This document shows, in pieces, positions 291 through 17,834 of a stretch of DNA of 17,834 bases (position 1 is the stretch's first letter; every line of letters starts with the position of its first letter). The notes below the pieces were generated by a model. That model made no database searches, had not been told where the DNA came from, and was given only the letters and a program-made list of their open reading frames with translations. The stretch comes from Geosiphon pyriformis uo1. Lineage: Eukaryota > Fungi > Glomeromycota. The stretch is taken from assembly GCA_016748015.1 (NCBI GenBank), contig JAAOMT010000578.1:36711-54544 (forward strand). Direction: 5' to 3'. The position numbers and the translations under genes were made by a program.

Positions 291-1420
291 TTTTTTTTAT
301 TCATTTAACAAGTAAAGTCCAAATATTATCTAGTATAATACATTAAATAATCAATCTAAACTAGGTGTAAATCATGTATTTTTTACATATAACCAGCCAT
401 TTAAGCTAATTAAAACAATACTAAACACCTATATAAACTAAAACTAGATTTTCAATATCTGAAAAAAATAAACAAGATTTACATAATTCAAAACTAGCAC
501 CAAATGTCTCAGCAATACCAAGCAATTTGACTATACTAGCAAAAAACATTAAAGACACCCCAAAAACTAAAATCAGAGCTAAACCATTACATAATACCAG
601 TCTATTTTTTTCCATAAAAGTACAATGCTTAGTACAGACCAACCAAATCTTATTTCTAAAAGCAAGACAAAAATTACTCACAAAGTTCACAATTTTCTAA
701 TTTGTAATCTTAGAACTTCCAAAGACAGATATAGTTTCTTAAAGCCAATTTTTAAAGACAAAACTCTTACAAAAAACTATACATACTGCAATATTCAAAA
801 CACAGAAGAACAACAATTAAGACATATATGAAAAGAACCAAAAAAGACCAGAAATTACACTCCAAGCAGTTGCATGGGCATTCAACAATTGATAATAAGC
901 AAAAACATTAATCACACAAGAAAAAACATAATCTAAAATCTCAATATTATCACAATACAAACACAATATACTAGAATAACACTTGTTATATAGGTGCTTT
1001 TGAACAGCAACTGGTAGTCAATAATGCAAAGCTTTCATAAAATATGTGTGGGCACTAGTAGTAGGCTTACTAGTAAAATTAACAGCCATGTGTGAATTAG
1101 AATACTATACCAAAGATAAGCTAAGCCAATCAATGTTTGATAATAAACTATTATCCAAAACTTTAAAACCAGAACCAACTTTTCAATGCACATAATAAAT
1201 AGACCAAAAAACTTTATAAATAAAATATCTAAAATTATTAAAAATAATACCACTCTTGGCCAACATGTAATGCTTTTTCAATTAGAAAGAAAGATACCAA
1301 GAAAAAAAAAAAACAGTGTTAGTAAAAGTGTTAGTACATATATTATCCAAAACACCCAAATAATTCTTAACTTTGTGCCAGTTAATATTTAAATTCTTCT
1401 TTTAAACAATGTTTATAATG
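291..1420 (-). mobile_element. 5'-truncated, decayed non-LTR (LINE-type) retrotransposon 3' end
   Basis: Minus-strand decayed reading frame: WHKVKNYLGVLDNICTNTFTN (RNase H C-terminal W-x-KVKGHSG-x-x-GNE-x-AD-like), ALHY*LPVAVQKHL, CLYCDNIEILDYVFSC (zf-RVT-like finger), IWLVCTKH, stop at 421, ~120 nt 3' UTR, then AATAAA/A-run at ~291-301. Confidence 0.8.
421..1420 (-). pseudogene. LINE ORF2 C-terminal part (RNase H tail + CCHC zinc finger + C-terminal domain)
   Basis: ORF-track 421..690 is the terminal piece; the same frame extends upstream through in-frame stops; finger at ~915-965 with H>Y. Confidence 0.75.
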
Positions 1421-1824
1421 TTATTATAGGTGATTATTTGGGATTTCAAAGCAAATAACAAACTCATAACTTGGTGCTTAGAAGCTATTTATGATGATAG
1501 TGTTGGTATCTGAATGTTTGATTGTTCTAAAGGTTTTGGTGTCGAGTCTTTTATATAATAGGCAGAAATTTAATAGTTGTTTTAGTAGCCTTCCAGAATT
1601 TCAATTTCGTCAAATTTTTTTCTCAGTGTAATGGTCAGTAATCTTTCTGGTAAGCTATTTTCAAATCTATGAGTGTTCTATCCTTGTTTCATAGGTCTTT
1701 TACCAGTCCTTATAATGTCTGTAATTTAGCATTTAATTTTTTAGTCAATTTAGTAAACAACAAAAAAATAACAAAAAATAAAAGAAAATAAAAGAAAAAT
1801 AAAAAAATAAGCCAAGGCAATAAA
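1420..1824 (-). mobile_element. Remnant E0: probable 5' leader and start of gag of a third LTR element
   Basis: Directly follows the E1 LTR end: TTTATTGCCTTGGC, then a T-rich run sharing TTATTTTTCTTTTATTTT with the E1 leader, then coding-like sequence with stop codons. No diagnostic domain. Confidence 0.45.
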
Positions 1825-2047: not shown

Positions 2048-2086
2048 CATATTTGAGATTCCTCAATTTTTCAATTCTTCACACCA

Positions 2087-2224
2087 GAAATCCTGGAATT
2101 TCTGGAATCTTGTAATTTCTTTTGGGAGGAATCTTAGAATTCTGGAATCCTGCAATTCCTTGTATGAGAATCCTGAAATTCCTGGAATCCTGCAATTCCT
2201 CTTAAAAAGAATCCTGGAATTTCA
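2087..2224. repeat. ~3.4 copies of a ~40-bp unit built from TCCTGGAAT-like 9-mers (E1 U3)
   Basis: Units start at ~2088, 2129, 2168 and 2209; consensus GAATCCTGGAATTCCTGGAATCCTGCAATTCCT. Confidence 0.9.
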
Positions 2225-2293: not shown

Positions 2294-2308
2294 TTATTTT
2301 CTCCTTTT
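2294..2308 (-). other. E1 polypurine tract
   Basis: Minus strand AAAAGGAGAAAATAA immediately before LTR TGTTA. Confidence 0.8.
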
Positions 2309-2927
2309 AATATTGAGCTCTGTTGAAATTTCCCAAATTTCCTAACTCTAATTCTCCATTCTTGAGTATTTCTTGAACTTTTTTTTTGAGAATTACTTGT
2401 GTTATCTTATTCTGTAATTCTTCAAATTGGGTGTTAGTTATTTTCTCCATTTGGTTAACTGTAATGAAATCCATTTCTGGATTAAGTAAAATTTCTGATC
2501 TGTCTTGAAATTCAGTCTGTAGCCAATAGATAGCTCTTGCTTGTGTTGTCAAATTGTTCTTTTCCACAAATTGTTCTAGTTGTTGCAGTATAGCTGTATT
2601 AAATAATTGTTTTGTTTTATCTATGTATAAGTTTTGAATATTCAAGTATCATCTCAAGTGGAAGTAACAAAAATTTCTTGGAAATTGTTGTATCCACTAA
2701 TCCCAAGTTTTTAGTATTTTCTGTATTTTTCTATTTTTTATCTTGTGGTTTTTTCTTGATATTTGTATATTTGATAGTCTGTTGACTGATTGTAATTTTC
2801 ATCTCTTGTTGTTAGATCAATTAGAAAAGTTGTTGTGTTAGTAAATGAATGTTTTCAGTAATATCCATTTTTTTGCTGTCTTTTTATCACATATACTGTG
2901 TCTTTATATACTCTTTTGGTTGTTCAA
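2307..2927 (-). pseudogene. E1 ORF3 (post-integrase ORF, unknown function)
   Basis: ORF-track 2307..2645 extends in frame upstream through stops; homologous to E2 10200-10676; its stop overlaps the PPT. The 5' limit is approximate. Confidence 0.7.
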
Positions 2928-2929
2928 TT

Positions 2930-4300
2930 TTATGTGTTTGGTTCAATGATTATAATTGGTTCTAAATTTTATAGAATCTCATCTGGTTTAACTAGTATTC
3001 TCTGTACTCTTAGTTGTGGAATATTACTAATAGATAATGATGCTGTATGGTAATATTGTTTTAGTTGATTACCATATGCTGCTTTGGTTAAAATTTTGTT
3101 GTTCAACCTTAATTTATAAGCTCCATTTCTAAGAATTTCTTTTAAGTAAAATTGTCTGTCCCATTTGGGGTCAAATTTTCTACTCTATTGTTTTTCTGCT
3201 TTGGTACAATGTAGAAGTACTTTGTCTTCAATCTTAAATTCAATTGGTTTCTCTGATAGTTGGTTATAATATCTTTCTTTTTGTTTTTCTTGTGACTTTT
3301 GTATATTATCAGCTGCTTTTTGCTTTTTGTTTTCTAGTGTTTCCATTAGGTCATACGTTTTTCTTAACAATATTCTTTGGAAATTTTCTTCTGTTATTGG
3401 TTTTGTTGGATATGTTTATACTTTTATCTCTACTGGTAGTATTGCTGTCCTATCATATACTAATTCAAATGGTGTTGTTTATGTAGTATCTTGCTTTATT
3501 GTCCAGTAAACAAATAATACTGATGATATGAACAAATTCCATTCATTTTGATTTTCTTGGCTGATTTTGGCAATTGCTTCACACAATGTTCTATTGAATC
3601 TTTCAACTAATCTATTGGTTTGTAGATGGTATGATGATTACAATAGTCTTTTAATTCCAAATTTTTGACTTAATTCTTTTAATATTCTATTCACAAAATG
3701 AGTTTCTTGATTTGATAATAGTTCTTTTGGATATTTGTGTTAACAGATTAAGTCTTAATAAAAGAATTTAGCAACAGATTCTGCATCTGCTCTTTGAATG
3801 GCTTTTGCTTCTGGCCATTTAGTGAGATAGTCCATGGCTACCACAATATATCTGTTGCCTCTACTGGTGATTGTTAATGGTCTGACTAAGTCAATTCCGA
3901 TATGATTGAATGGTTGTTCCACTTTAATTCATTTTAATGATTTACTGGGTCTTGTTCCTCCTTTTTTTTGACAAGTATCACAATTTTGAACATATTAGAT
4001 AATGTCTGGATACATTAATAGCCAATAATATCTTTTTCTGGTTCTTTCCATGGTTGTTTTTTTATGAAAATGTCCTGCTGTTGGATTTAAGTACATGTTG
4101 AACAGTATTGTTTCTTTTTCTGGTTCTGTAATCACTCTGGTTGGTTGGTCTAGATTTTTTTGGTTTTTTTGGTAAAGTATATTTTGATGATTGATAAAAT
4201 ATTTTGATTGCTGTTTTATGTTGTTTTGTTCTTTTTGAGATAATTTCTCCTTGAACAATTGGGTATTTATATAATGCTAAAGTTGTTGGTATTTTTGTGT
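2930..4300 (-). pseudogene. E1 integrase (HHCC, DDE core, GPY/F)
   Basis: AGHF...YYW...CDTCQ; IGIDLVRPL; VAMDYLTKWPEA; TNRLVERFNRTL; TPFELVY; KFDPKWDRQF. Confidence 0.95.
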
Positions 4301-4354
4301 GTTCATCTTTTTGTTATATTTTTTGGGTTGAAATGTTTTTAGATTTGTCTTATT

Positions 4355-5640: not shown

Positions 5641-6171
5641 TCTGCCAAATTTGTTTTTACTGGCAAAGATGTCATTGAATTTGTTAAATAACATCTTTAG
5701 TTGCATCTGTTGGAATGGGTCTAAATTTCTCATGTTTATCTGTTCCAATTGTTCTAATTGGAGCAGATAACTTTTGCTTCATCTGTAAATGATTTGTAAT
5801 GTGATGTCTACATATTCACAAAGCTGTGGAAAATCTGGAATGTAGTTTGGTGGTTGATTTTCAACTTCAGTGGTTAAATATTTAATAATGGTTCCCTTTG
5901 GTATTTTGATGACCTTTCCAGTTGTGTTGTAGATAGAAATTTTAATGTTTTTGGGGCTTTTAGCTAATATGTAGAGATTAGTGAGTCCAATCTCTCCTGA
6001 TTTGCAAATGGTAGCTTCTGTTTCAAACAACTGAGCTTGATTTTTTACTTCCTTTTTTATGGCTAACATATACTGGTCATATAATGGAATGGAAATTAAT
6101 TAATGGGTTGAGATAATTTCTTCTTTGTCAACAATTTCTTCTTTTGCCATATTGATTGGTATATCTATCTT

Positions 6172-6590
6172 ACCTGTTGCTCTGAATCTCTATAATCCTT
6201 TAGCTGTGATACCTAGTTCTTTTTTTTTTCCCACTGAAACTAATTGAGCTATTTTCACCAAAAGTAAGAATATTGCCTGTGCTATCTTTTTATTTGGCTT
6301 TATAATATAGGCTTTTTCTGAATTATTTTGTAGCATGACAATGATATTTTCTATGTATTCCACATCAATTATTTCTCTTCTAATGTTGATTTTTTTTTCA
6401 CTAAACTACTCTTAGATGCTAATTGAATCATGGTTGTTGTTGAAATTTTCAGAGCTATTTTGAGATCAATATATGTGCACAAATTTGGTTCCAATTTGAT
6501 GGCTTTTTTTCCCAGATATCTCAGATCAAATCCTGTATCAGTATCATGCACACATTCTGGCATGATACCTTTATTATTGTCATTATACCA
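6172..6590 (-). pseudogene. E1 dUTPase domain
   Basis: All five motifs recognisable: TGFDL, ASKSSL (RSSL), EIIDVEY (GxIDxxY), KIAQAI, AKGL*RFRATG (RGxxGFGSTG); frameshift in an A-run near 6390. Confidence 0.9.
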
Positions 6591-6829
6591 TTTGAGTTCC
6601 TGCTCCTTAGAGAGATCAGGAAGTGCGATGTATATTCTGGAGTTTAAATTGAAGTCTGAATTATTGATATTTTTGTTGCTATATTGAGTGGAGCTAAAAC
6701 TGGTGTTTTCATTGTTGACATTGTTGGAGTTTGAATCAGAATTGAAAACTGATTCTGATTCTGATGCACAGCTGCTGATTGGTTCTTCTTCTGGAATTAT
6801 GTAGATTATGTATGATGGTAGATTGTAAA

Positions 6830-7455
6830 TGAGATCACACTCATTACAATACTGAAAGTCACAGAGAATTAAGCAATATTAACATAATTGAGTATTCAAT
6901 TGCTCTAAATGCTGCTCTTGTTCTTCCCTAGTGGATGCTAATTGCTGGTAATATTCATGAAATTCTTTTGGATCATCTTTAATATTGCCAAAGATGTCAA
7001 AAGTTTGAATGTATTCAGATTTAGAAAAAAATAGAGGGTTGTTTTTGATTTCCAGTAGTTTACTGGTTGTCACATCCTCTACTTTCACACTTGTCATTCT
7101 CCAGAGTTCATCTTCATCATGGGAATATCTTTTTAATTGTCACAATGATTGTTTCCAGGCATCATCAATTGGTGTTCTCTTGTATATCCAGTCATTAATT
7201 AGGATCATATACTGGCACATTTCATTGCATATTTCTCTGCGTCCAGAAATGTCATTCCATATTCCTTCATCAGACAAAATAGTTTCACATGTGAGACATA
7301 GTTCATTGTCCCATTTTTCTTGCTGTTTTAATTGTCCAAAGCATTCTATGTCACATGGGCAACAGTAGAATTTGGTTGTCATTTGATGTTTCTTATCATT
7401 GCCATAACATGTGCCTATTGATAACAATTTCTTGCTGCAATCAATGCATATGAGT
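6830..7455 (-). pseudogene. E1 Cys-rich domain of unknown function between PR and dUTPase
   Basis: CIDC, C, CCPC, CLTC, CNEMC and C*YC-x3-C-x4-CNEC clusters, matched in E2. Confidence 0.7.
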
Positions 7456-7819
7456 TTTGGCCGACAGTAGGTAGATTATTGTGGTATAGTGTAGGTGTAG
7501 TAATTATAAGGAGGACTGATAGGTGTTGTTTCTTTTCCCTTGTCAGTCTTTTCCCACTCCCAGTTTGCTGATTCATCTTGATTATTATCAGTTTCCTAGA
7601 CTTAGTCGGCATTCCAAGTAAGTTCTTCTTTTTCCTTTTTTTTTCTCTTATTATTGTCTTACAAAAGTATTGGTAGTAGCTCATTGTGGTTTTTGTCAGT
7701 CCAGAATACTTGATAGACTTCCCAAATAGGTTTCTTTTTATCTTTTTCGAATTTGATAAGTGAAGCTAATGGCGTGGTAATGGATTTGAAGTCACCACAC
7801 ATGGCTGGTACACATGTGT

Positions 7820-8060
7820 ATTATCTATTTCACCAATTGGAGTCTTGATGGCTCCATCAGCTGTAATTATTCTTGCACTGGCAGTTCGATCAACTCAGCA
7901 ACCTAATTGGTCCATAAGCTGTCTTGTGATGATGCTGTTAGCTGATTTACTATCTAGGATCAATTTGATAAGATGGGTATCAACTTTGGTGTCAGTATAC
8001 ATTGTGGGAATTGGTTTTTCCTTGAGTGCAGCTCCACTGAACAAGGGTGTAGATGTCAGT
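7820..8060 (-). pseudogene. E1 aspartic protease (C-terminal part deleted)
   Basis: KLILDSKSANSII (DSG>DSK, 7946-7954), IITADG, TPIGEIDN, then an abrupt jump. Confidence 0.9.
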
Positions 8061-8625
8061 TCTTCAAGTTTGAATGGGAAGATAGCTGTGAGTAACTTGT
8101 CATTGGTGACAGTTGTTGGTGAAATATTGCTGATAAGTGGCTGTTTCTGGTTGGATTCCAGGTGGTTGGATGTAGTGTCTTCTAGGGTGACTAGAAGACT
8201 TAAATAGTTCTAAGAATTCAGGTTTTGGGTGTACTTGGTGCCCGAATTCCATTGTTGCAATCCTGATGGTTGCATGGAGAAACTGAGAATTAGTTGATGA
8301 ACTACCATTAATGATTTCCAGCTTTGCTATGTTAGTTTTGGCCTTTGGGTTCTGTTTTGAGATAAGTTTTGGGCAGTATTTGGATTTGTTGGGGCTGATA
8401 AATTATCTAAGACTGTGGCTGATAAATGGGTTAGGGCTGTGGTTGATAAATGACAAGTGTTGTTGGTTGATAGATTGATGATTAATAAATTTACTGCTGT
8501 GTTATAAGTACGTAATTTGGTTGATATTATTCTGGTGATTAATTACTGACATAATTCTGAGTTTGTAGTTGGCAATTGGAGTTTCAATACTGATTAGCTG
8601 ATCTCTGGTCACTTATTTTTCTTTG

Positions 8626-9197: not shown

Positions 9198-9549
9198 TCT
9201 GCTGTTACTGGAGGTTTTTGGTCTTTTTTCTTGAATGTTGTTACTGTTTATCTGTTGTTAATTTCACGTTTTCTGGAAGCAGTTGAATCTCCAATAATTA
9301 AATTTATTTTCAAATTATCTCTTATAATTTGAACTGTTGGGCTTATAAGTAAAATGGCCAATTCTGTGCCAGTTACTTTGTGTAGTTACATTGTAGTAAA
9401 CATCAACTCTTTCTTAGGCATTGCTCATCTAAAAGCTCACTAAAATTGTACTTTGCTGTGAAAGTCAACTCTTCTATAGAAATCTCATCTGTAGGCTACT
9501 CTAATAATTGTAATAAAAAAATAAAAGAAAAATAAAAGAAATGTAAAAG

Positions 9550-9560
9550 AAATAGAATTC
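9550..9560 (-). other. Candidate self-priming PBS of E1
   Basis: GAATTCTATTT is 10/11 complementary to AAACAGAATTC in the E1 LTR (2017>2007), which starts 30 nt after the TATA. Confidence 0.6.
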
Positions 9561-9808
9561 TGTTAAGAAAAACGTTTTCTATCCAGACCTGGAGTCACTA
9601 ATATTTTATTGAAATTGGTAGCTAATCAATTTCAAAACGTTAGTTGTGTTGAAAGAATTTCAAGTGTAATAATTTAAGAATTTGGTTTTTGAATATTTAA
9701 TTTTTATTTGAATGTGTAAAAGATAATTTGTTATAATTAAGATATCTAAAGTAAAATACTATGCTATGATGTAAAAAGATATATTTTCTTGAAAAGAAAA
9801 GCTTTTTT

Positions 9809-9814
9809 TTTATA
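9809..9814 (-). promoter_or_regulatory. Putative TATA box of E2 LTR
   Basis: Minus-strand GTATAAAA; the equivalent in the + copy is TATATAAAA at 17821-17829. Confidence 0.5.
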
Positions 9815-9863
9815 CAACTTGTTGTAGTACTAGTCTTTGAACTTGCACTTTTTTCTTTGCTTT

Positions 9864-9960
9864 AATTTTGGCAAACTAAAGATACATTTTGGTAAACTAC
9901 AAGTTATTTCTACAAACTATTGATTATTTTGGCGAATTTTCATCAATTTCGGCGAATTTT
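9864..9960. repeat. Five ~20-21-bp spaced TTT(T/C)GGCGAA-like motifs (E2 U3)
   Basis: Cores at 9870, 9891, 9911, 9931 and 9951; mirrored at ~17677-17772. Confidence 0.75.
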
Positions 9961-10165
9961 AACTATATTAAATGGTTCAGGATATTGTGTAATTTGATCA
10001 TCTTAATTTTTATAATACAAATTGGGTTATTAATTAAATAATAATATTTGATAATTTGATTAAATAATAAGTGATAATCGAAATAATAATAATATATGCT
10101 AATTAATAATAAGAATTATGAGGGTAATTTTATGCTAATTAATAGCTAAAATTCTACTGGTAACA

Positions 10166-10178
10166 TAATCTCCTCCTT
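10166..10178 (-). other. E2 polypurine tract
   Basis: Minus strand AAGGAGGAGATTA immediately before LTR TGTTA. Confidence 0.85.
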
Positions 10179-14186: not shown

Positions 14187-14567
14187 TTCTCTGTTGTTAA
14201 CTAATTATAAACCCAAAATGTTGATTAAGGATAGATAAATTGCTTGGACAATCTTTTCTGCATGTTCAATCCTAAATGGTTTGTCTGTTTTATTCTGTAA
14301 CATGATGGTAATATCTTCAGTATATTCTGCATCTATAACTCCTCCTCTAATATTGATTTCTTTGCTTGCCAATAATGATTGAGAAGCAATTTGTACTATT
14401 GCTCCTGATGGTATTTTAAGAGCAATTTTGAAGTTGATTTTGGTTAAGGATTTTGGTTAGAGAACCAAAATATCTTTTTCTGAGTATTGTAGATCATATT
14501 TAACATCTATATCATGGGCTTTTTTTGGTTTTATTTTTTGTTCATTGTTGTCAAAGTATTTAAGTTG
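14187..14567 (-). pseudogene. E2 dUTPase domain (motif 5 missing)
   Basis: AHDIDVKYDL; IASQSLL; GGVIDAEY; KIVQAI. Confidence 0.88.
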
Positions 14568-15499: not shown

Positions 15500-15900
15500 T
15501 ACAGATAGTAGATACTTTGGTATATTGTTCTTAATACAAAATCTTCAATTTCTGGATTTCCCAATTTAAATTTGCATTGGTCTTGAGAAACCAATTATTT
15601 CCAACAAAAGCTTGGTATTGGGGTGCATTCATGACTAAAACTTTGACTGAAATGGCGATTTTATTAACTGTGAAAAGAAAGTTATCAATTTCTTTTACTG
15701 GGGTTTTCTTTATACTATCAGCTATAACAATTACTGTTTGGGCTGGTCTGTCAATATTTTGGTTGAGTTGTTGCATTAGTTGGTAGGTAATAATAATACT
15801 TTTAACTAATCTACTGTCTAGAATTAAGCAGATTTGTTTTCCTTTCACTTTAGCTTCAGTATATATAACAGTGATTGTTTTTTGCTCATTAACAGCTGCA
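15500..15900 (-). pseudogene. E2 aspartic protease
   Basis: CLILDSR (DSG>DSR, 15810-15818); AFVGNNWF (ILGxDWL-like). Confidence 0.92.
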
Positions 15901-16435
15901 TTGTTAAGCAAGAATGGTGATTCATTGACTTCAAATTCAAATAGAAATATATCTGAAAAGTTGGTATTTTGAGCAATTTGGACTAATGGAATAGTATTGT
16001 TAGAAGGGTTTAATCTTGGTGCTGCAACTTTATCTTTAGAAAGTGCAGTTTGTTAAAAATCTGATTCTTTTGGTATTGTAAGATAACTGGATTGAGTGTG
16101 GTAGTAATTGGGTCTTTACTGACCAGAATTTCGAGAAACCAACTAGTTGTTTGAGTTGATTCTGTTATTATTATTATGGAATTAATTTTGGGTTGTGAAT
16201 TGGTTTTGTTAAATCAATCTTTGGACAGGTACTTAATATTGTTGTATAAGTAACTGTTAATACTATTGAATTGGTAAAAGTTGTTGATATTGTTGCTGGG
16301 AGAAGGTTGATAGTAACTGTTTTGCTATTGGAATCTTGAGAAATAGTAGACTGGTAGTAAAGGCTGATAATGAAATTGCTATGTTGAAAAGTAACATTAA
16401 TTACTCCTGTTTTGTTGGTTTCTTTGTGGCTTTTT

Positions 16436-17470
16436 GCAGTCTTGTTTCCAATGTCCTAGAATTTCACAATAATGACAACTTTGGTTTTAACTGTTTAATA
16501 ATAATGGGTAGTTGGTTTGGTTTTGTTGTTGTGGTGGTTAATATTTTTGTGTTTATTGTTGCTGTTGTTAATAGTTTTCAACCTTTTTTGTAAGCTGATC
16601 AATTTTTTCTTCAGCTGCTGAGCTGGTTTCTTTAATAGCAAAATTCACAAGTTTGATATGGTTTGCTTCTTCTATTGCTATTTTATAGTTTTTTGCATGT
16701 CTAATAACTATTGCTAAGTCTTTTAGAGCAGGTGGGCAAACTTTTTTGATCAATTTGTCTTTTAATTCTGCTATAAACTGATCCAAAATCTGGGCATTGA
16801 AATAGTATTAATTGATTTCCAATTGTCAAATTTGTCTAAGAAGATTATTAAATCTTCCAAGATAAGTTATAACAGTTTTAGATGTTTCTTGTTTGATATT
16901 GTAAAAGTGATTTTGGAGAATGATAAAAGTGTTGTTGTTAGTGAATTGTTATAAGAAAGCATTTTTGAATGCTTGCCAATTTTTAAATAGTTCTTCTAAG
17001 TTTTCAAACCATTCTCCTATAATTTTTTGAAGAAAGTATGAAATTGCTTTAAATATTTTTGCTGTATTTTATTTATTTGCATCTTCTGCTTTCTGGACTT
17101 TGTTAAGCCATTTTTGAAAGCTGGTATCATTATTTTCACCAGTAAATTTGGAATTTTTGCAATATAAACAGTTGCCATTTTTTTTTATTTTCTGTAGTTT
17201 TTTCTTGTTCTGATTTAGTTTCTTTACTTTCTAAGTTTTTTAAATGATTACTTTTATTTTTTTGTAAATAATTAATAATATTAGTGCTGGTTAATATTGG
17301 TTTTTGCTGTTGAGTAAGACTTTTAGGTGACTGAAAATCTTCTGGTTTGAAGAAACAAATAAGTGGTGAACTTGGTGTTTATGGTTGAGCAAGTGAAATT
17401 GGAAATGGTATAATAAAAAGTAATAATTTAATGCTGGTTCCTTGTTCAGGTGTTTGCAAGTATTTGGCAG
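16436..17470 (-). pseudogene. E2 Gag (retrotransposon gag domain + intact CCHC knuckle)
   Basis: FTGEN..KWL; GEWF..WQAFKNAFL; IKQETSKTVITYLGRF; ILDQFIAEL; CHYCEILGHWKQDC at 16436-16477. Confidence 0.88.
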
Positions 17471-17834
17471 TGTTACCAATAGAATTTTAGTTATTAACTA
17501 GCATGAAATTACTCTCATAATTCCTATTATTAATTAGCATACATTATTATTAATTCGATTATTACTTATTATTTAACCAAATTATCAAATATCATTACTT
17601 AATTAATAATCAGATTTGTACTCTAGAAATTAAGATAATCAAATTACACAATACTCTGAACCATTTAACATAGTCAAAATTCGCCGAAATTAATGAAAAT
17701 TTGCCGAAATAATCAATAGTTCAGTGAAATAACTTGTAAATTTGCTGAAATATATCTTAAGTTCACCCAAATTGTAGCAAAGAGAAAAGTGCAAGTTCAA
17801 AAACTAGTACCACAACAAGTTATATAAAAGAAGA
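17471..17834 (+). repeat. E2-family LTR in opposite orientation (5' LTR or solo LTR; runs off window)
   Basis: Starts TGTTACC; co-linear with the reverse complement of 10165>9805; not preceded by a PPT; interrupts the E2 gag frame. Confidence 0.9.

What the first reader, a model, noticed from the sequence alone, without database searches (positions are those of the whole stretch)
6830..7455. Unrecognised ~200-aa multi-Cys (putative zinc-binding) domain inside Pol
E1 CIDCSKKLLSIGTC..FYCCPC..FG..KWDNELCLTC..W.D..CNEMCQY vs E2 CKDCSKKLLSMGAC..YYCKAC..FG..K*DNTPCLTY..W.D..CDQTCQY, then a helical stretch and a second cluster (C-x2-C-x3-C-x4-C-x2-C). Cys, Trp and Gly spacing is conserved across families. 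Standard gypsy Pol has no such domain; it could be a chromatin or nucleic-acid reader released by PR (inference).
Basis: partly seen in the sequence, partly recalled or inferred. Interest (0 to 1): 0.75.

Follow-up and report, generated by a model that had tools for sequence, protein, structure and literature searches.

The report
Unnamed triple zinc-finger in fungal retrotransposon
Dead gypsy-type jumping genes of a mycorrhizal-type fungus carry a conserved, unnamed stretch of about 210 amino acids with 13 cysteines between their protease and their dUTP-destroying enzyme, predicted to fold into three zinc sites around a helical core and likely an optional docking arm for that enzyme, which makes it a real but modest addition to the known parts of such elements.

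Summary
E1 and E2 share 11 of E1's 16 Cys, against 27% identity at other residues. Thirteen Cys recur across five Geosiphon pyriformis subfamilies and in one uninterrupted metagenomic PR-domain-dUTPase-RT polyprotein (P0235). A second metagenomic element (P0351) shares only the C-terminal helix plus Cys5 module. No significant match came from Pfam, NCBIfam, PHROGs, PDB sequences, the ESM Atlas or fold searches. AlphaFold2 (mean pLDDT 69, pTM 0.36) gives two treble-clef-like C4 fingers, a confident four-helix core and a small Cys5 module. The region is net acidic, which weakens a plain nucleic-acid-reader role. Most likely it is an optional zinc-stabilised docking arm on the dUTPase (about 0.4); function is untested. 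Five non-Geosiphon dUTPase-bearing relatives lack it, and other relatives carry unrelated Cys motifs in the same spacer. The scan earlier noted smaller Cys/His modules beside dUTPase in other genomes; identity with this one is unverified. New variant of a known kind.

The parts
6830..7455 (-). E1 multi-Cys region (about 210 codons), all 13 conserved Cys present, two internal stops (7142, 6881)
7353..7448 (-). Finger 1: C-x2-C-x24-C-x2-C, predicted treble-clef-like; the last Cys pair sits at the start of a helix in the model
   Evidence: weak LIM-domain Foldseek rows on the low-confidence first model
7215..7298 (-). Finger 2: C-x2-C-x19-C-x3-C with a conserved Trp on each side of its first Cys pair, predicted treble-clef-like
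7010..7214 (-). Four-helix core (approximate limits), the most confident part of the model (pLDDT 84-94 over model residues 91-140)
6837..6975 (-). C-terminal module: helix pair plus C-x2-C-x3-C-x4-C-x2-C (left limit exact, right limit approximate); found alone upstream of a dUTPase in metagenomic P0351
6570..6830 (-). Acidic Ser/Asn/Asp-rich low-complexity linker between the region and the dUTPase (approximate limits)
6175..6570 (-). E1 dUTPase, frameshifted near 6400 (approximate limits)
   Evidence: motifs; tblastn to the E2 dUTPase; homologues carry PF00692; Pfam did not detect it in the E1 half-frame
7820..8083 (-). E1 aspartic protease, decayed
   Evidence: homologues carry PF13650/PF13975
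4345..5643 (-). E1 reverse transcriptase and RNase H, decayed
   Evidence: PF00078, PF17919, PF17917
2936..4300 (-). E1 integrase, decayed; likely its own reading frame
   Evidence: PF17921
14670..15293 (-). E2 copy of the multi-Cys region, about 30% identical to E1, 10 of 13 conserved Cys kept, four internal stops
14229..14528 (-). E2 dUTPase
   Evidence: PF00692 E 3e-11
15681..15950 (-). E2 aspartic protease
   Evidence: homologues

Best explanation
This is a conserved, unnamed Cys-rich region of Pol, lying between protease and dUTPase in a fungal Ty3/gypsy lineage, predicted to bind about three zinc ions and likely to act as an optional protein-docking arm that stays attached to the dUTPase and holds it near reverse transcription in the particle. 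Shown: position, in-frame fusion, conservation of 13 Cys, and absence from the libraries searched. Predicted: two tandem treble-clef-like C4 fingers, a four-helix core, and a helix plus Cys5 module. Inferred: zinc binding; that protease cuts upstream of the region rather than between it and the dUTPase; that a trimeric dUTPase would then display three such arms; and that these arms bind an element protein (Gag/NC or RT), so dUTP is removed where cDNA is made. The window's own copies are dead.
For: Order PR < region < dUTPase < RT in one uninterrupted ORF (P0235). Among 224 stored proteins with the region, the order labels were PR<ZF 31, ZF<dUTPase 75, both 12, region alone 93, out of order 13. 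Identity of P0235 to Geosiphon copies: PR about 59%, fingers 38-48%, helical part 29-41%, Cys5 module 50-58%, dUTPase 51-60%, flanking linkers about 15-35%. Every lineage that carries the region also has a dUTPase downstream, including the third Geosiphon family and P0351. None of 56 relatives with PR and RT but no dUTPase carries it. All five dUTPase motifs are intact in P0235. The net acidic charge fits protein partners better than nucleic acid. The model places the second Cys pair of both fingers at a helix start, as in the treble-clef core defined in PMC4999995 (passages). Precedents: the NC-dUTPase fusion of Mason-Pfizer monkey virus (PMC1802613, abstract) and the extra Zn knuckle after the dUTPase of Juno elements (PMC5408684, passages).
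Against: Five of five non-Geosiphon relatives with a complete PR-dUTPase-RT interval lack the region, so the dUTPase does not need it. The co-occurrence rests on about two independent lineages. A low-complexity linker of up to about 80 residues separates the region from the dUTPase in E1 and could be a cleavage site. The model's pTM is only 0.36, so domain packing is unresolved, and no fold match is significant. No binding partner was tested.
Confidence: 0.4

Rival explanations
1. The region is cut out by protease and acts on the host as a chromatin or methylation reader, or as an anti-silencing adaptor, that helps the element choose sites or escape silencing.
For: Flexible, poorly conserved linkers on both sides. 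Tandem C4 fingers with MYM/FCS-like spacing in 5 of 6 copies tested. One sub-threshold PHD-like hit. An acidic surface could bind histones (inference). The window is strongly CpG-depleted (observed/expected 0.11). An unchecked note reports CpG-centred insertions in this genome (e1-10582392).
Against: No PHD, RING, LIM, CXXC or zf-FCS profile match above cut-off. The region is far from the integrase, which likely is a separate protein. Most relatives in the clade lack it.
Confidence: 0.2
2. The region is a second nucleocapsid-like nucleic-acid chaperone that binds the RNA or cDNA and brings the dUTPase to the template, as NC does in betaretroviral NC-dUTPase.
For: Finger 1 and the linker after it are neutral to basic. 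FCS-type treble clefs can bind RNA (PMC4047054, passages). Precedent in PMC1802613 (abstract).
Against: Finger 2, the helical core and the Cys5 module are acidic in the least decayed copies. There is no CCHC knuckle pattern.
Confidence: 0.2
3. The region is a zinc-stabilised structural spacer that sets geometry or cleavage timing between protease and RT and has no specific partner.
For: Unrelated Cys motifs occupy the same spacer in relatives: C-x-C-x10-C-x2-C in 13 and C-x-H-x8-C-x2-C-type in 3 of a 41-member clade, while about half have none. No homology to the first of these motifs was detectable (HHalign probability under 1%).
Against: A 210-residue, three-part region with conserved Trp, Gly and helical residues beyond the ligands is more than a spacer needs.
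Confidence: 0.15
4. The region is a neutral passenger (a captured host fragment), or its Cys richness is a by-product of CpG decay.
For: Some Cys in the copies are variable Arg/Cys/His positions typical of CpG decay. Identity among recent copies is expected from descent alone.
Against: The 13 Cys persist between families only 30-43% identical and in an intact ORF, while the linkers diverge. No host gene appeared among the hits that were named.
Confidence: 0.05

Closest known systems
Fungal and rotifer Ty3/gypsy elements with a dUTPase between PR and RT (PosPlaTy3-5 of Postia placenta, PMC2864245; Juno, Vesta and TelKA of bdelloids, PMC5408684; Burro, PMC6431247; all read as passages)
   Same: Order PR-dUTPase-RT-RH; Juno also has an extra Zn knuckle beside the dUTPase.
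   Different: Here a region of about 210 aa with 13 Cys and a helical core precedes the dUTPase. Juno's knuckle follows the dUTPase and is a single small knuckle. The passages read mention nothing of this size.
Betaretroviral nucleocapsid-dUTPase fusion (Mason-Pfizer monkey virus, PMC1802613, abstract)
   Same: A zinc-binding module fused N-terminally to a trimeric dUTPase in a retroelement polyprotein.
   Different: NC is a basic CCHC protein from Gag (recalled). This region is all-Cys, net acidic, lies after the protease, and whether it stays fused is untested.
Treble-clef zinc fingers of the TRASH/zf-FCS/MYM and LIM types (PMC4999995, PMC4047054, passages)
   Same: CxxC knuckle, loop, then a Cys pair at a helix start, in tandem. 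Finger 2 fits C-x2-C-x19-25-C-x3-C in 6 of 6 copies.
   Different: No FCS signature, no conserved His ligand as in LIM, no profile match; followed by a helical core and a Cys5 module not seen in those families.
Small Cys/His modules beside the dUTPase noted earlier in this scan (e1-9859060, e1-9861470, e1-7552071, e1-7508334, e1-9944351; unchecked AI notes)
   Same: An unnamed putative zinc module between protease and dUTPase in dead fungal gypsy elements.
   Different: Those are 33-45 aa with His. This is about 210 aa with no conserved His ligand. Sequence look-ups found no look-alike windows.

Membership tests
Ty3/gypsy LTR retrotransposon | Order Gag, PR, RT, RNase H, integrase | tested here: met
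Ty3/gypsy LTR retrotransposon | Flanking direct LTRs with polypurine tract and primer-binding site | tested here: inconclusive
   E2 has a purine tract (10166-10178) and a TG-starting LTR at 10165 on the minus strand, but its 5' end is interrupted. No LTR pair was found for E1.
Trimeric dUTPase | Five conserved motifs | tested here: met
   All five in P0235, P0351 and (decayed) P0004; PF00692. Window copies are broken.
Treble-clef zinc finger (fold group) | Knuckle, loop, hairpin, helix, with ligands from the knuckle and the helix start | tested here: inconclusive
Spacing and predicted helix positions fit. The fingers were not folded or searched alone.
zf-FCS / MYM-type finger | CX2C-X14-30-FCSX2C signature (PMC4047054) and a PF06467-type profile match | tested here: not met
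   The third Cys is preceded by Tyr/Phe only in finger 1 and is never followed by a conserved Ser. No zf-FCS hit in 24 members at E up to 5. Loose tandem spacing fits 5 of 6.
LIM domain | C2-H-C / C4 ligand pattern with His | tested here: not met
   Recalled pattern matches 0 of 6; best Pfam LIM E 3.5 in 1 of 24.
PHD or RING finger | C4HC3 or C3HC4 pattern | tested here: not met
   0 of 6 match the recalled patterns; one zf-HC5HC2H hit below cut-off.
zf-CXXC CpG reader | Twin CxxCxxC pattern | tested here: not met
   0 of 6, recalled pattern
Gag CCHC knuckle or badnavirus second Cys region | C-x2-C-x4-H-x4-C, or C-x2-C-x11-C-x2-C-x4-C-x2-C | tested here: not met
   0 of 6 each, recalled patterns
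Zinc-binding domain (any) | Measured metal binding | not testable with these tools
   Needs ICP-MS or a PAR assay

The most novel reading that the evidence does not exclude
The region is a new kind of retrotransposon-encoded zinc-finger reader or anti-silencing protein, released from Pol. It recognises the methylated, CpG-depleted chromatin of Glomeromycotina fungi and helped this lineage take over the Geosiphon genome. The PR-RT spacer of this clade would then be a swap site for several independently acquired zinc modules.
Probability: 0.12. Interest if true: 0.75.

Novelty: new variant of a known kind. Interest (0 to 1): 0.4.

Why it matters
It adds an undescribed three-part zinc and helical domain to the parts list of LTR retrotransposons. 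It also shows that the PR-RT spacer of one fungal gypsy clade repeatedly hosts different Cys modules. An intact natural ORF (P0235) makes the domain directly testable. In practice, several hundred 'hypothetical proteins' in the Geosiphon pyriformis annotation are fragments of these elements (102 and 216 hits; all 222 listed are named Geosiphon), so a profile of the domain would help clean that annotation. If it proved to read chromatin or counter silencing it would matter more, but nothing here shows that.

Tried and rejected
No whole genome was held for this window.

Sequence libraries: Pfam, NCBIfam and PHROGs gave nothing above cut-off for the region. PDB sequences gave best E 0.13. The second profile included dUTPase columns, and the 60 rows shown of 78 were all dUTPase matches. 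ESM Atlas gave no usable hit and a best score of 0.82 to unnamed clusters; neither shows novelty.

Related loci: scans of viral contigs and metagenome contigs confirmed no locus. No RNA holder was listed.

Homology leads rejected: the C-x-C-x10-C-x2-C spacer motif of relatives. A visual likeness of finger 2 to a motif in P0385 did not score with the finger-2 profile, and the shuffle control in that script failed to run.

Other readings rejected: RIP as the cause of decay (TpA/ApT 0.88, substrate index 1.35). The 360-nt inverted repeat as DIRS-like termini, rejected in favour of a nested LTR insertion.

Papers: searches returned nothing. Searches listed no title describing the domain. Subscription papers, including the Geosiphon genome paper, are not in the library, and no supplements were read.

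Full report
Setting. The window is AT-rich DNA holding two decayed Ty3/gypsy elements on the minus strand: E1 (about 9500 to 2300) and E2 (about 17470 to 10165). They align over Gag, protease, the region in question, dUTPase, RT, RNase H and integrase. No genome was held. All 102 hits to the E1 region, and all 120 listed of 216 hits to the E2 region, are named hypothetical proteins of Geosiphon pyriformis, so the host is likely that fungus or a close relative. PMC11952901 (passages) reports striking LTR expansions in Geosiphonaceae and Ambisporaceae, and TE sequence in the exons of 61% of G. pyriformis genes. One DNA run gave 8,434 contig pieces on 6300-8200, most under 95% alike and differing mainly by transitions, which fits many diverged copies. 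CpG is depleted to 0.11 of expectation and the RIP indices are not of RIP type.

Observation. The quoted motifs are exact. E1 keeps all 13 Cys that prove conserved (7448 to 6837) but has stops at 7142 and 6881; E2 keeps 10 of 13. E1 and E2 share 11 Cys in 214 columns (1.05 expected, P 2e-12), and 11 of 16 E1 Cys against 27% identity elsewhere (P 5e-4). Identity among recent copies proves little, so I compared lineages. A tree of the region, built from 180 of 350 stored proteins with enough coverage plus a few added, separates three Geosiphon families, one of them with three subfamilies. With P0235 this makes six lineages. In 192 columns covered by all six, 9 of 15 Cys columns and 25 of 177 others have the same majority residue (P 1.5e-4). 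The four Cys of finger 1 fall outside that count only because two subfamilies have few or decayed rows there. At the 13 positions, 1,206 of 1,313 residues in the Geosiphon-type copies are Cys, and 72 of the 107 exceptions are Tyr.

Anatomy. From the N-terminus: an acidic linker after the protease; finger 1 (C-x2-C-x24-C-x2-C); a short, often basic linker ending in Lys-Trp; finger 2 (C-x2-C-x19-C-x3-C); four helices; a helix pair and C-x2-C-x3-C-x4-C-x2-C; an acidic linker; then the dUTPase. P0235, an unnamed ENA protein about 43% identical to the nearest Geosiphon copy, has protease, region, dUTPase and RT in one uninterrupted frame, with all five dUTPase motifs. Against Geosiphon copies its protease is about 59% identical, the fingers 38-48%, the helical part 29-41%, the Cys5 module 50-58%, the dUTPase 51-60% and the linkers about 15-35%. 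AlphaFold2 on P0235 with 54 rows gave mean pLDDT 68.9 and pTM 0.36. The helical core scores 84-94, and helices start at the second Cys pair of each finger, the treble-clef arrangement described in PMC4999995 (passages). An earlier model on a decayed copy scored 51 and gave only non-significant LIM rows. The intact copy has 24 basic and 38 acidic residues; only finger 1 and its linker are neutral to basic.

Distribution. The profile found 417 representatives at E<=0.001, of which 150 were listed. Of those, 27 were already named Geosiphon. Of 20 more looked up, 19 were Geosiphon and one was P0235. The other 103 are at least 57% identical to named Geosiphon proteins but were not looked up, and 267 hits were not shown, so the range is a lower bound. 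Among 118 new relatives found with P0235's dUTPase-RT part, the profile hit two Geosiphon proteins and P0351. P0351 is a JGI protein cut at its start that shares only the helix pair plus Cys5 module (E 1e-13); its 37 preceding residues do not align. Of 62 relatives with both protease and RT, none of 56 without a dUTPase has the region, and 5 of 5 non-Geosiphon ones with a dUTPase lack it. In a 119-sequence tree of about 160 RT residues (FastTree, weak backbone), E1, E2 and P0235 sit in a 41-member group (support 0.87). That group includes a Rhizophagus irregularis protein and also one record named Tanacetum; P0351 does not group with E1, E2 and P0235. Thirteen members carry an unrelated C-x-C-x10-C-x2-C motif in the same spacer and three a C-x-H-...-C-x2-C motif.

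Mechanism. Shown: position, in-frame fusion, selective retention of Cys, and that the region is optional. Predicted: three zinc sites and a helical core. Inferred: function. I favour an optional docking arm that stays on the dUTPase and holds it near reverse transcription (0.4). Every carrier has a dUTPase just downstream, the C-terminal module occurs with a dUTPase in a separate lineage, and the surface is acidic. Zinc modules fused to retroelement dUTPases have precedent in betaretroviral NC-dUTPase (PMC1802613, abstract) and in Juno elements (PMC5408684, passages). The role of dUTPase in keeping uracil out of new DNA is from PMC4531489 (passages). Against this: dUTPases work without the region in relatives, the association rests on about two independent lineages, and cleavage and partners are untested. 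Rivals are a released chromatin or anti-silencing reader (0.2), an NC-like nucleic-acid chaperone (0.2), a structural spacer (0.15) and a neutral passenger (0.05).

Novelty. A dUTPase between protease and RT is known in fungal, rotifer and planarian gypsy elements (PMC2864245, PMC5408684, PMC6431247; passages). PMC3248453 and the Entomophthora preprint 10.1101/2023.09.13.557621 (passages) showed nothing on such a domain. Eight paper searches found no description; subscription papers and supplements were not seen. Earlier notes of this scan describe smaller Cys/His modules at a similar place in other genomes, while sequence look-ups found no look-alike of this one. Verdict: a real, undescribed accessory domain in an otherwise known kind of element, with narrow known range and untested function; interest 0.4.

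Noticed in passing
window 9805-10165 and 17471-17832: The 362-nt, 87% inverted repeat around E2 is most likely E2's 3' LTR (TG start at 10165 on the minus strand, after a purine tract) plus an LTR of the same family inserted in the opposite orientation into E2's gag. Alignments of three Gag homologues stop at 17468-17471 while those proteins continue upstream.
   Followed up: partly
window 5779-6099 (minus strand): A second, degenerate dUTPase-like stretch follows the dUTPase before RT (Pfam dUTPase E 0.06). It is conserved in P0235 at about 28-37% and may be a decayed tandem duplicate.
   Followed up: no
window about 4300-4345 (minus strand): RNase H ends in a stop and the integrase continues in another frame with a Met near 4303. 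Many relatives end after RNase H without an integrase domain. This agrees with earlier notes of a stand-alone integrase, but decayed copies cannot prove it.
   Followed up: partly
P0367, P0369, P0370, P0372, P0373, P0375, P0376, P0377, P0387, P0392, P0400, P0404, P0458: A separate unnamed motif GP-x3-C-x-C-x10-C-x2-C sits about 50 residues before RT in 13 metagenomic gypsy polyproteins without a dUTPase. No Pfam match in the one tested.
   Followed up: partly
P0349, P0350, P0385: A C-x-H-x8-9-C-x2-C motif lies in the PR-RT spacer, after the dUTPase in the first two. P0385 also has a C-x2-C...C-x4-C motif that looks like finger 2 but does not score with its profile.
   Followed up: partly
window 2065-2223: Imperfect tandem repeat of about 40 nt (three to four copies, rich in GGAAT/ATTCC) near the 3' end of E1.
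   Followed up: no
window 2307-2648 (minus strand): A 113-codon open frame downstream of the E1 integrase; possibly an integrase tail or an extra ORF.
   Followed up: no
window 1748-1814 and 9492-9557: A-rich imperfect direct repeats flank E1 and may be LTR remnants or chance low-complexity matches.
   Followed up: no
window 421-1400: Several short open frames and fragments on both strands with a different AT skew, possibly part of a further decayed element in the opposite orientation.
   Followed up: no
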